Below the pieces are notes generated by a model that saw nothing but the letters and a program-made list of their open reading frames with translations, was not told where the DNA came from and ran no database searches. From contig OX597820.1 in assembly GCA_951406725.2 (NCBI GenBank), positions 37,634,001-37,698,000 of the forward strand: a DNA stretch of 64,000 nucleotides. The letters run 5' to 3'. Positions 1,956 to 13,900 of this stretch are shown here, one piece after another. Source of the stretch: Octopus vulgaris (Eukaryota). Each line of letters begins with the position of its first letter. Position 1 is the first letter of the stretch. The position numbers were made by a program, and so were the translations under genes.

Positions 1956-4900
1956 GTATCCTTTTTAAACATTTTGATTTTATTCTTTCATTCATCACCA
2001 CAATTGAAGTTACTAAGATATACACATTTACCAGTGCATATGTACACAGTCATTTATACTTTCATCTTCAATAGCATACATAGATATATACCTTCATACA
2101 CACACATGCACTATTATAATGAAAGCTAAAAAAAAAAAAATTATGAAATACAGTTACCCAGTCTTTCCTAGGCATCCTGTTAATTTATTTTGCATTTTTT
2201 AATGATAGAATTCATGCCTATTAATGGTTACAGAAATGCAAATTCCAATGCATCAAGCAACAATGATTCAGATGTTGGCAGGCAGAAATATTATCCCAAT
2301 AAAAATTCTTATTAGTGCAATTATTACTATAATAATATCTTTACTGCCTTAACTGATCAAATGCTATTGCTTGTTGAAAATCACACACATGCACCCCACC
2401 AATCATCATCATACATCCGTTTTCCATGCTGGCATGAGTTAGATGGTTTGACTGGAATTGGTAAGCTGGAGCGCTGCACCAGGCTCCTGTTTGGTTTAGC
2501 TTGGTTTCTATGGCTGGATGCCCTTTCTAATGCCAACCATACCACAAAGTGTACAAGGTACCTTTTACATGTTGCTGGCAGAGGTGTTTTCTCGAGTACA
2601 GCAAATTGCCAAAGGTCTCAATCATTTGTAATCTCTCTCTCTCTCTCTCTCTCTCTCTCTCTCTCTACACACACACATATATGGTGAGAGATTTGAGCAA
2701 ATAGGAGAAATAGGGAAAAAATAGGACTAACTGCATACATATATACATATATAAATTGGCTGTAAAGTTACATAAGTGAAACTCTTGGCAACTGAGTCAC
2801 TTCTGTAACTTTCGGAGGAAGTAAGTAAATCGTGATAGACCATTAATGAAAGCCAAACTTAGTCAATCCCATCTTCCACTCTTATGTTGGTGACAGCCCT
2901 GTGGTTCCACCACAGGGTCTACTTTTGCAACAAGGCTAAATATATGTTTGGTAAACATATGGTGCTAAAGCTGCTTACAAAATTTAATCTCACACATACT
3001 GCATTGATGCCCTCATACACACACACACACACACGCATGCACACACCCAATACATTCCATATCAGAAATGCTGTTTTTATGCCATTCTACTTTTCTTGTG
3101 GTAATTGCTGCAGTTTTGTTATTGCTTACTTTTTCTTTTGCTTTTTATTTATTTATTTTTTGATAAAAAAAATTGGTTTCCTTTCAGGAATTTTTTCTGT
3201 TTCTGTTATTTTTTCATTTCAAATTCTACAGATTTTTTAAAAAATTATTCTTGTTTATAAAATTTTCACCTTTTCTACTTTTATTTCTTTTCATGAATTT
3301 TATTTATCATCATCAATATCATCATCGTCATCATTATTATAATTTTGTTTTTTTCTGTCTGTTATTTGTCATTTATTTATTCGTGCTTGGAGGAAATGTA
3401 TGATTTGATTGTGGCAGGGTCTGTGACTGGATCAATACATTCCTTCAGTTGCATTTCCTCTATCCTTCAGCATCTTCAGTTACATCGCACCAACCAACTA
3501 TTCCATCATTGATGTGTTATTGAGAGAGATTGTATTGAGATAGATTCTAGCTAGATTCCCAATGATAACTAGCTACTCCTCTACCCTCCCGTATATAACT
3601 TTTATTCGTCTGTGACCTACTTGAGGAGGGGTGGAGGTGGTGGAATGCAATCCTTTCTCTTTCCTCCGCTACCTGTTCACCCATCTCCCTTCCACCTCAC
3701 TCTTTCTTTTCCCTGAATTTTATCAATATATCTTCGCTCTAATTCTAACAGTTATTGAAGTAATCTAACACACACACACACATATATATGTATTGAAAGA
3801 GAGAGACACACACACACGTGACCATGTAACCATACACATATTCACACATGCATACTTCTATATGCATATATATTTTTGTTTGTGTGTGTGTGTGTGTGTG
3901 TATATATAATGTAAACACACACTCACACAAGTGTAAACATTCTCAGATACACATGCTAATACATATATCTTTAAACACCTTCACGTATAGTGATGTTCTT
4001 CTAATAGATGATAAGTTAAGATATGCAACAGCAATAACAACATTCAATTATGCATAGACTGATTTCGTATGTTATTTAATACTTCTGTTACTATTTTCCT
4101 GATATAACATAAAGCATGGCTGTGTAGCTAAGAAGCTTGCTTCCAAACCATGTGGTCTTACGTTCAGTCCCACTGTGTGGCATCTTGGGCAATTGCCCTC
4201 TGCTATTGCTTCAGGCTGACTAAAGCTCTGTTGGTGCATTTGTGTGTGTGTTTGTCCCTCATCACCCCAACCAGTGTTGGTTTGCTTAAGTTTCTGTAAC
4301 TTAGCAGTTTGGTGAAAAGCGATGGATAGAATAAGAAACAGGCTTTAAAAGGAGAATCAGATCTGGGGTTGATATGTTTCACTCAACCCTTAAAAACAAT
4401 ACCCCAACATGGCTGCTGTCCAATGACCAAAACAAGTAAAAGAGAAAAGATATCAATATTTTCAAATTAATTTTGAAAACGATCAAGAATTTGGAGTAAT
4501 TTAGTAAAAGTTGTTTGACTGGTCTCCATTAGTTTGTATATAAGTATATATTTGCAGGCTTGGGCAAGGGTTCACTTTTTGAAGACTAGCAGTTGCTCAT
4601 GAAGTAAGTTTCTCTTCTTTTGTTCAATGGAAAGATTTTCCTTAGAAGCTGATATTGCTTTACACCATTGTTGTTACATATGTTCCATCAGGGCTGCAGG
4701 AATTCAAAATGCCACTACAAATACTGCATGACATTTAGAAGTAATATGAAGAAATCAAGAGTATTCTCCATCATCATAATTGTCATCATCATCATTATTA
4801 TGATTGTTATGTGACAGTTTAATCTCAAGCCTCTGTCAGTCATTAATGACCATAGATGAATGTCATTGTTGTCTGCTCTGCTGGAACAACATTGTCTGTG

Positions 4901-10900: not shown

Positions 10901-13900
10901 ATGACTACTCAAACAAACAATTGAAGCATGATGTAGCCCTTGGACACATGAAATCCTGTCAAACCATTCAGTCCATGCCAGCATGAAACTTGGTCGTTGG
11001 ATGATGTTGATGATGTGTTGTTACTTTGTGGTAAGATGTTTTTGTGAAACAGTTTCATTATTTCCACAACAGTGATTTTCTTGTAGTTTCATTATTTCCA
11101 CAACAGTGATTTTCCTTAACTAGGTTCTAACAGATATGGAAGATGCGCATACACATTTACTGTCTTTACCATCAGATAGAGATTGTTGCTATTTTGGAGT
11201 TTTTGATGGACATGGAGGTAAGTTAGAATGCATGAGATACTATTTTGGAATCTTTTCTTTTCTTCTTTTTTTTTTTCCTTTGACTTGTTTCAGTCATTGA
11301 ATTGCAGCCATTCTGAGGCATTGCCTTGAAGAGTTTAGTCAAACAAATAGACTCCAGTACTTATTTTACTGGTCTCTTTTGCCAAACTGTGAGGTTACAA
11401 GGCCATAAACAACCCAACACCAGTTGTCAAGCAGTGGTAGAGGATAAAAGAATCAACACACACATGTATGTATGTATATCTGTACACACACACACACACA
11501 CACAGTGGGTTTCATACACACACACACACACACACACACACACACACAGAGTGGGTTTCTTTCAATTTCTGTCTACCAGATCCACTCACAAAGCTTTGGT
11601 CAGCCTGAGGCTATAGTAGAAGTAGAAGGCTCAAGGTGTCTGCACAGTTGAGCTGAACCCAAGATCACATAGGAAGCAATTTAGGCTCTAAATTCTAATC
11701 CTGCAAGATCTGATTTCACATCTTAAAATTTTGGGTAGGGCTGATCTAAATTTACAACTGAGGTTAACTTTGCTGTTCATCCTTCCTCAGTTGATAAAAT
11801 AAGTTTGAGTTATGTATTGGAGGTGAACAAATCAACAATATCTGGCCTAAAGTTTTCATCTTTGTTTTTTTCTTCATCATTCTATGTAAATTGCTACATT
11901 TTATGGCTGTCTCTGTATCGTCCTCCCCATCCATTGCTATGGTGGCAAAGAATAGAAGTGATGATAATAATAATAATCCTTTCTACTGGAAGCACAAGGT
12001 CTCAAATTTGGGGGAAGGGATTAAGTCAGTTACATTGACCGCAGTGCGTAAATGGTACTTGTTTAATCGACACCGAAAGGATGAAAGACAAAGTTGAACT
12101 CAGAACGTAGTGGCAGACAAAAGACCGCCAAGCATTTTGCCCAGTGAATAATAATAATAATAATAATAATAATGGTCATAATAATAATAATAATGGTCAT
12201 AATAATAATAATAATGGTCATAATAATAATAATGATGATGATCATAATAATAATGGTCATAATAATAATGGTCATAATAATAATAATAATAACGATGATA
12301 ATAATAATAATAACGATGATAATAATAATAATAATGGTCATAATAATAATAATAATGATGATAATAATAATAATGGTGATAATAATAATAATGGTCATAA
12401 TAATAATAATAATGGTCATAATAATAATAATAATGGTCATAATAATAATAATAATAATGGTCATAATAATAATAATAATGGTCATAATAATAATAATAAT
12501 GATAATAATAATAATAATAATAATGATAATAATAATTAATAATGATAATAATAATTAATAATGATAATAATAATAATGGTCATAATAATAATAATAATAA
12601 TGATAATAATAATAATAATATGATCATGTGATGGAGGCTTGTTTGCATATCATCAAGTCTATTCCTTCTCTTTGGGTGTCTCTTGAGTTCACTGCAGATG
12701 CGTTGTGAAGGTCTTTTAACTCTGTCACTCTAATGAAATTCCTTACACATGTATACACATTCATACACATATACAAACATACACACACTTGGTGTGAGTG
12801 ATTTACATATGCAGAGAAAGAGTGAAAGAGAATGTGGTAAATATATGTAAAGGGGGATGTTTACAATGAGAAAAGCATAAAAGACAGAGAGACAGATATA
12901 TATAGATAGGCACTTGTCTCCTCACTAACTTGCATTGCATGTCATATCAAGAGAGAGTGGGGAGCAGCATGCATGAGAAAGGTACATATACAGAGAGTGA
13001 GAGAGAGAGAGTAGTGAATATATAGAGAGAGGAGAAAGTTTGCAATGAGAAATGTATAAAAGACTGATAAAGAGAGGTAGATAGACTGTTATAAGATGTG
13101 ACACACACACACACACATACAAATATACACACACTCAGGTAATCGGGAGTTTAAGTTGGTGGCTTCTAAAGACATTCAGTGTTGGTGATCTGGAAGTTGA
13201 GTTATTTCTTGTAGAAAATTATATTTTTTGATTACTCTTTTACTTGTTTCAGTCAATTGACTGTGGCCATGCTGGAGCACCACCTTTAGTCGAGTAAATC
13301 GACCCCAGGCCTTATTCTTTGTAAGCCTAGTACTCATTCTATCAGTCTCTTTTGCTGAACCGCTAAGTTACGGGGACGTAAACACACCAGCATCGGTTGT
13401 CAAGCAATGGTGGGGGGGACAAACACAGACACACAAACATATACACACATACATATATATATATATATATATATATATATATATATATACACAATGGGCT
13501 TCTTCCAGTTTCCGTCTACCAAATCCACTCACAAGGCTTTGGTCGGCCCGAGGCTATAGTAGAAGACACTTGCCCATGGTGCCATGCAGTGGGAATGAAA
13601 CCGGAACCATGTGGTTGGTAAGCAAGCTACTTACCACACAGCCACACCTTACTGATAATCAAAAAACCTTGGGATGCAGACTTTGAAAATCAAATCTGTT
13701 TCTCTCTTGTGTACTCTGTAGAGAAGAGTAGAGAGGGCCCTTTTAGATTTGCTTTGCTCTTCAGTGCCGTTGTCACAATAAAATGCACCCAATTTACTCT
13801 GTAAATAGTTGGTTTTTGATAGGAAGGATATCAAACCATAAAACTATGTCAAAAACAAGACATACAAGCAAAATGAAGTCCTCAGGTACTGGCTCTCAGT

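What the first reader, a model, noticed from the sequence alone, without database searches (positions are those of the whole stretch)
1956..11133. 9.2-kb U12-type minor intron splits the PP2C motif WRI/NMEDAH
Seen: donor GTATCCTTTT, branch TTCCTTAAC ending 13 nt before the 3' junction, no pyrimidine tract, and an in-frame join. The other visible splice sites are U2-type. Established: these are the U11/U12 consensus signals, minor introns are rare and often slowly spliced, and U12 donors do not normally pair with U2 acceptors. Inference: output of this phosphatase depends on the minor spliceosome. Retention reads through to a stop at 2072-2074 (73-aa product lacking the metal-binding residues). 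The intron is long and packed with transposons.
Basis: partly seen in the sequence, partly recalled or inferred. Interest (0 to 1): 0.75.

Follow-up and report, generated by a model that had tools for sequence, protein, structure and literature searches.

The report
Ancient minor intron in octopus phosphatase
An octopus PP2C phosphatase gene has a 9.2-kb intron with the marks of the rare "minor" splicing class; it is cut out at the predicted ends in RNA assemblies, and the same kind of intron sits at the same spot in coral-like and fungal relatives, so it is likely a very old but ordinary minor intron.

Summary
Real, but ordinary. Intron 1956-11133 (9,178 nt, GT-AG, phase 1 inside the Asn35 codon) has a U12-type donor and branch point. 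Both pair with this genome's own U11, U6atac and U12, and U4atac is present too. The 1955^11134 join is in contigs of 4 of 8 runs laid (4 studies) and restores WRINMEDAH of a Ptc2/T23F11.1-like PP2C, 204/206 identical to an Octopus bimaculoides protein. Added here: 45 metagenome contigs carry the same exon end plus GTATCCT, and all 32 with the next exon give a phase-1 GT-AG intron. They include coral-like, Podila and Paraglomus-like genes, so the intron likely predates the animal-fungal split. Contigs of two runs from one study keep the intron start, but retention level and any regulation were not measurable. No paper found names this intron, but octopus genomes are in a published minor-intron survey. 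The scan had not noted this intron before; it noted another octopus minor intron (PP6) on other DNA.

The parts
1845..1850 (+). Tandem TAG/CAG acceptor of an upstream 5'-UTR intron (U2-type, T tract); TAG 1845-1847 is likely the one used
   Evidence: RNA contigs of X1, X7, X11 and X6 align from 1846 with other sequence in front; the upstream exon probe was not found in the window or the 9.9 kb before it
1853..1955 (+). First coding exon, Met1 to the first base of Asn35 (includes Arg33)
1956..11133 (+). U12-type GT-AG intron, 9,178 nt, phase 1
   Evidence: joint 1955->11134 'skips 9178, GT..AG' in X7, X12, X11; loose end equal to the next exon in X6
1956..1966 (+). U12-type 5' splice site GTATCCTTTTT
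   Evidence: duplex with own U11 -6.5 and own U6atac -8.1 kcal/mol, against -1.1 to +1.9 for the 5 other donors scored
2072..2074 (+). First in-frame stop (TAG) if the intron is retained; 73-aa conceptual product
2128..2140 (+). 13-nt A run, the only run of 10 or more A in the intron; possible internal oligo(dT) priming site behind the retained-intron contigs
   Evidence: contigs 1846-2090 in X1 and 1847-2062 in X2; priming is inferred
11051..11114 (+). Tandem duplication (30-nt unit, period 34) just before and overlapping the start of the branch point; the first copy ends in an AG-bearing decoy not seen used
   Evidence: no joint to it listed
11109..11120 (+). U12-type branch point (ATTTTCCTTAAC), branch A 11119
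   Evidence: duplex with own U12 -11.0 against -3.6 to -5.7 kcal/mol for the other introns
11134..11217 (+). Second coding exon: MEDAH and DGHG (Glu37, Asp38, Asp59, Gly60)
23097..23162 (+). Coding exon 3
34536..34601 (+). Coding exon 4
39212..39285 (+). Coding exon 5
44258..44399 (+). Coding exon 6 (GDSR, DHKP)
57659..57742 (+). Coding exon 7; two more coding exons lie beyond the window in L071

Best explanation
This is a GT-AG U12-type intron in the first coding-intron position of an octopus Ptc2/T23F11.1-like PP2C gene, removed at 1955^11134 in RNA contigs, likely by the minor spliceosome and likely inherited from the common ancestor of animals and fungi. [quoted passage not shown] Inferred from established mechanism: U11 binds the donor, U12 binds the branch point and bulges A11119, U6atac/U4atac replace U11, and the AG 14 nt downstream is used while the AG 4 nt downstream is too close. 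The intron grew with octopus repeats as its neighbours did. Failed splicing would give a nuclear, decay-prone RNA rather than a useful 73-aa protein, and any slowing of output is likely the generic roughly two-fold effect of the class.
For: Signals and chance levels. U12 125 bits, U11 94.5, U6atac 96.9, U4atac 83.8, all over cut-off. Junction in 3 of 4 runs and as a loose end in 1 of 4; the other three there read straight through. Spliced frame: 206 codons, no stop, 204/206 identical to P0002; WRIN precedes MED[AST]H in 60 of 65 homologues with that context. 45 metagenome loci have the exon end plus GTATCCT, all GT donors. In 32 of 45 the next exon was found and all 32 are phase 1, GT-AG, 128-2238 nt. 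21 of 24 distinct 3' tails have YTTRAY 8-26 nt from the end, against 4.6% of control windows. Ten loci match Pocillopora protein P0023 at 32-33 of 34 residues in exon 1. An L017 exon is 100% identical to Podila epicladia Ptc2, and the single hit for an L026 exon is Paraglomus occultum at 79%. Among 34 homologues (named ones are Mortierellaceae) with a scorable N-terminus, 17 start at MEDAH and 5 are garbled at this junction, as expected if gene finders miss a U12 intron there.
Against: intronIC or a trained matrix could not be run, and no knock-down data exist here. The metagenome scan required the U12 donor, so it cannot count losses or conversions and is heavily redundant (20 distinct exon-end peptides; 24 of 45 loci are one unnamed lineage near P0083). 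The fungal branch points lie 25-30 nt from the AG, beyond the 11-13 nt optimum in PMC3584512. 3 of 24 tails lack the motif in range. That the runs are RNA is the tool's guess. Orthology of the fungal and animal genes rests on about 50% identity and shared intron breaks seen by eye; no tree with outgroups was built. Proteins starting at MEDAH also arise from truncation (19 of 86 among the hits).
Confidence: 0.9

Rival explanations
1. The intron is a conserved regulatory throttle: retention or intronic polyadenylation near the donor sets PP2C output by cell type, which is why it was kept from fungi to octopus.
For: Deep conservation. It sits before all aligned metal-site residues. X1 has a contig that enters at the upstream acceptor and runs unspliced to 2090, with no spliced junction in that run, and X2 reads through to 2062. 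Read-through meets a stop within 3-57 codons in all 45 relatives.
Against: Both runs belong to one study; contigs give no levels; they end beside a repeat and upstream of a 13-nt A run where oligo(dT) could prime on ordinary pre-mRNA; the first AATAAA is at 2298. Early stops are expected in any AT-rich intron. PMC10639083 argues in its title that neutral processes may explain much of minor-intron evolution.
Confidence: 0.12
2. The intron has U12-looking ends but is spliced wholly or partly by the major spliceosome.
For: Termini are GT-AG, and some U12-type sites are spliced by both machineries (PMC10853781, start of abstract in a search listing).
Against: The donor departs from the GTRAGT pattern at +4 to +6 and the exon ends in CA; there is no pyrimidine tract after the branch point; pairing to the own U11, U6atac and U12 is among the best 2 sites in the window; the U12 signals are kept across animals and fungi.
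Confidence: 0.05
3. The fungal and animal introns were gained independently at the same site, so the octopus intron is only as old as animals.
For: No gene tree was built; fungal and animal proteins are only about 50% identical.
Against: Same phase, position and class; other intron breaks coincide at P0002 residues 118 and 187 (by eye); minor-intron gain is described as extremely rare (PMC10639083 section 24).
Confidence: 0.05

Closest known systems
GT-AG subtype U12-type spliceosomal introns (PMC3584512; PMC10639083)
   Same: RTATCCTTT donor, TTCCTTAAC branch point close to the AG, no pyrimidine tract, phase 1 (the commonest minor phase), one minor intron among U2 introns in an old gene; molluscs are described as relatively rich in minor introns.
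   Different: Nothing in kind. This intron is not named in the papers searched. The branch A is 14 nt from the end, one beyond the quoted 11-13 nt optimum.
Minor introns shared between animals and early-diverging fungi (Rhizophagus 205, Basidiobolus 249 minor introns; PMC10639083 section 24)
   Same: A minor intron at one position in animals and in Glomeromycota-like and Mortierellaceae genes.
   Different: PP2C, T23F11 and Podila do not occur in that paper's one held supplement; its per-intron tables were not visible.
PP2C/PPM family, T23F11.1/ppm-2-like and fungal Ptc2-like proteins; nearest solved relatives 2I0O, PPM1B 2P8E, PPM1A 1A6Q
   Same: PF00481; GWR, MEDAH, DGHGG, DGIWD and GCDN motifs align.
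   Different: No vertebrate name appears among the 120 of 203 hits listed. Loss of this subfamily in vertebrates is my recall and was not tested; it would explain absence from human-seeded U12 lists.

Membership tests
U12-type intron | 5' splice site RTATCCTTT able to pair with U11 and U6atac | tested here: met
   GTATCCTTTTT; duplex -6.5 and -8.1 kcal/mol with own snRNAs; 2 of 3802 GT sites as good
U12-type intron | Branch point TTCCTTRAY able to pair with U12, a short distance from the 3' splice site | tested here: met
   TTTTCCTTAAC, branch A 14 nt from the end; duplex -11.0; 2 of 3740 AG sites as good
U12-type intron | No distinct polypyrimidine tract | tested here: met
   TAGGTTCTAAC between branch point and AG
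U12-type intron | Excised at these ends in RNA | tested here: met
   joint in X7, X12, X11, loose end in X6; runs are RNA by the tool's guess
U12-type intron | Minor spliceosome snRNAs present in the genome | tested here: met
   U11, U12, U4atac, U6atac over Rfam cut-off
U12-type intron | Classified minor by intronIC or trained matrices | not testable with these tools
   program and matrices not available; snRNA pairing used instead
U12-type intron | Splicing depends on U12/U6atac snRNPs | not testable with these tools
   needs knock-down
U12-type intron | Higher retention than neighbouring U2 introns (class tendency) | tested here: inconclusive
PP2C/PPM phosphatase, T23F11.1/Ptc2-like | PF00481 domain with intact metal-site motifs | tested here: met
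   204/206 identity to P0002; motifs align to PPM1A/B structures
PP2C/PPM phosphatase, T23F11.1/Ptc2-like | Subfamily orthology by phylogeny | not tested
   only best hits and pairwise identities

The most novel reading that the evidence does not exclude
This intron is a minor-spliceosome checkpoint kept since the animal-fungal ancestor directly in front of the PP2C metal site. In octopus it is held back or polyadenylated near its donor in some cells, which tunes phosphatase dose. Because the same intron is only about 320 nt long in Podila, it would offer a compact fungal test of whether ancient minor introns are kept for regulation.
Probability: 0.1. Interest if true: 0.5.

Novelty: new member of a known kind. 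Interest (0 to 1): 0.22.

Why it matters
It is one well-supported example of a minor intron shared by an octopus, corals and early-diverging fungi, in a gene that human-seeded lists may miss. It also flags a spot where gene finders likely mis-build PP2C proteins in Mortierellaceae. It changes no current view: minor introns in molluscs and these fungi, and their deep conservation, are published. It would matter more only if regulated retention were shown.

Tried and rejected
No listed holder was on record as RNA; the runs used are RNA by guess. The joined form in other runs (table 5b) was not given. Contig depths were not used to estimate retention. Rfam scan of the window: 0 matches. No element-sized ORF in the intron: the longest stop-free stretch is 125 codons, and its repeats are short dispersed pieces that were not named against any library. 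Other joints inside the intron have sides of 18-31 nt within repeats and were treated as repeat artefacts. The alternative AG at 11122-11123 and the decoy AG in the tandem duplication appear in no listed joint. X18 and X20 read through the donor unchanged but are near-identical to the window, so they add no conservation evidence. The first exon set had three boundaries off by one base and gave a frameshifted translation; it was corrected. My note calling one group of loci 'annelid-like' is not backed by a named hit and is dropped. Literature: searches returned 0 papers. One search returned 3. In one search none of the 40 listed of 423 held T23F11.1. One search returned 5, none on this intron by title or abstract start. 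The insect list of 71 U12 introns (PMC3291851 supplement, part 1 of 2 read) names no PP2C. PMC2831892 has no 'phosphatase' in its main text. Online intron databases (IAOD, MIDB, the survey's per-intron data) could not be seen and may list the intron.

Full report
Observation. The donor GTATCCTTTTT starts at 1956. TTCCTTAAC lies at 11112-11120 with the branch A 14 nt from the final G at 11133, and no pyrimidine tract follows it. The intron is 9,178 nt and phase 1, inside the Asn35 codon. Read-through stops at 2072-2074 after 73 codons. Under a third-order model of the window, the donor has probability 2.9e-4 given a GT, and the strict branch motif 8e-5 in a 14-nt slot.

The gene. One exon used as query found 203 proteins, of which 120 were listed. 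The best is an Octopus bimaculoides 'probable protein phosphatase 2C T23F11.1' (P0002). Seven coding exons in the window translate without a stop, 204 of 206 residues identical to P0002, and two more lie just beyond the window. A search of the own genome with that exon gave this locus and one weak 53% match, of 5 candidates scored. The protein aligns along its length with PP2C structures including PPM1A and PPM1B. In PP2C-alpha, Asp60 and Gly61 bind metal directly and Glu37 and Asp38 through water (PMC5390078, one passage). The aligned octopus residues are all downstream of the intron, so a retention product would lack them.

Machinery. The genome holds U12 (125 bits), U11 (94.5), U6atac (96.9) and U4atac (83.8), all over Rfam cut-off. 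With these copies, the donor pairs with U11 at -6.5 and with U6atac at -8.1 kcal/mol, and the branch point with U12 at -11.0. The five other complete introns score -1.1 to +1.9 and -3.6 to -5.7. Only 2 of 3802 GT sites and 2 of 3740 AG sites on the + strand do as well. This stands in for intronIC, which could not be run.

RNA. Eight of the 24 listed runs were laid. All are assembled contigs and their RNA nature is a guess. The joint 1955 to 11134 is in X7, X12 and X11, and X6 shows the next exon as a loose end; these are four studies. X1 and X2, from one study, read from the exon into the intron to 2090 and 2062, and X1's contig enters at the upstream acceptor. X18 and X20, kind not on record, also read through, as DNA would. 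The X1 and X2 contigs fit a partly spliced RNA, but they end beside a repeat and upstream of a 13-nt A run, and contigs give no levels. They do not show regulation.

Conservation. An exact pattern for the exon end plus RTATCCT matched 45 metagenome contigs. All 45 donors are GT. In 32 the MEDAH exon was found, each time giving a phase-1 GT-AG intron of 128-2238 nt; in 13 it was not found. Of 24 distinct 3' tails, 21 have YTTRAY 8-26 nt from the end, against 297 of 6400 control windows. Ten loci are nearest to a Pocillopora protein, 24 (by exon 1) to an unnamed protein P0083, and 8 are single animal-like loci not assigned. Three are fungal-like. An L017 exon is identical to Podila epicladia Ptc2. 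The only hit for an L026 exon is Paraglomus occultum (79%), and L013 groups with it. Their branch motifs lie 25-30 nt from the AG, longer than in animals. Of the 45 homologues (named ones are Mortierellaceae), 11 lack the N-terminus, 12 are intact, 17 start at MEDAH and 5 are garbled at this junction. That is an indirect sign that the intron is widespread there. The scan demanded the U12 donor, so it says nothing on losses, and no tree was built. An origin before the animal-fungal split is therefore likely, not shown.

Length and repeats. The seven coding introns measured are 4610, 4972, 7331, 9178, 11373, 11879 and 13259 nt; the minor intron is the median. Self-BLAST repeat cover is 19.5% against 12-27% in the other five in the window (lower bounds). 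Across species, minor and major intron lengths track each other (rho 0.903; PMC10639083, passage), so a 9-kb minor intron in a 2.8-Gb genome is expected.

Mechanism. Most likely the minor spliceosome removes the intron in the standard way (0.9). The signals, junction and snRNAs are shown; the pairing steps and the dependence are inferred from PMC3584512 (passages). In human cells U12 introns are on average two-fold more retained and are exosome targets (PMC4066798, abstract), so failed splicing would more likely lose the RNA than make the 73-aa peptide. Rivals are a regulatory throttle (0.12), major-spliceosome use (0.05) and parallel gain (0.05).

Known or new. It meets every sequence criterion of a GT-AG U12-type intron that could be tested. 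No paper found names it (supplements). However, O. bimaculoides and O. sinensis are in the species list of PMC10639083 (sections 24 and 33 read, plus passages), and the annotated O. bimaculoides protein has the correct join, so it has probably been scored by machine already. Databases I could not see may list it. Verdict: new member of a known kind, interest 0.22.

Side finding. U6atac gave 43 matches among 46 candidates scored, against 3-5 for the other minor snRNAs. Of 20 copies examined, 16 are followed directly after the T-run by one of three shared repeat sequences (6, 3 and 7 copies, sorted by eye). One more has another repeat-like piece and 3 have none; upstream flanks are unrelated. 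This resembles the U6 and U6atac template-switch chimeras of vertebrates (PMC4476161 and PMC6789731, passages), and earlier scan notes report U6-SINE fusions in this genome. Target-site duplications were not checked, and the SINE label is from recall and from those notes.

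Noticed in passing
G000, 43 places; L006, L007, L053-L070: U6atac snRNA is dispersed in at least 43 copies. 16 of 20 examined are fused at their T-run to one of three shared SINE-like sequences: two look like full heads, one like a 3' tail. They are likely template-switch retrocopies, a kind known in vertebrates. L006 has a TATA-like box upstream and no fused repeat and may be the working gene. TSDs not checked.
   Followed up: partly
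window 11051-11114: 30-nt tandem duplication (period 34) that ends inside the U12 branch point; the first copy is followed by TTGTAG, a U2-like decoy acceptor not seen used.
   Followed up: partly
window 1845-1850: Tandem TAGCAG acceptor just before the start codon; contigs point to TAG, and one contig (X12) ends at 1849, which could reflect use of both.
   Followed up: partly
   Followed up: partly
P0123-P0167 (one search hits): Many Mortierellaceae Ptc2 proteins in public databases start at MEDAH or are garbled at the WRI-MEDAH junction, likely mis-annotation at this minor intron.
   Followed up: partly
L013, L026, L017: The fungal copies have a perfect U12 branch motif unusually far (25-30 nt) from the AG.
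   Followed up: no
L004 and L005 (G000 C3 and C15): Two U11 copies on different contigs share near-identical flanks over the 350 nt printed, suggesting a DNA-level duplication.
   Followed up: no
L039 (and L008): L039 keeps the 128-nt minor intron while a long stretch downstream (P0002 residues 159-311) appears to have few introns; its branch motif and that of L008 depart from consensus.
   Followed up: no
window 5870-6615: Repeat-rich stretch that draws very high contig depth in all four runs; the depth comes from other copies in the genome and does not show expression of this intron.
   Followed up: no
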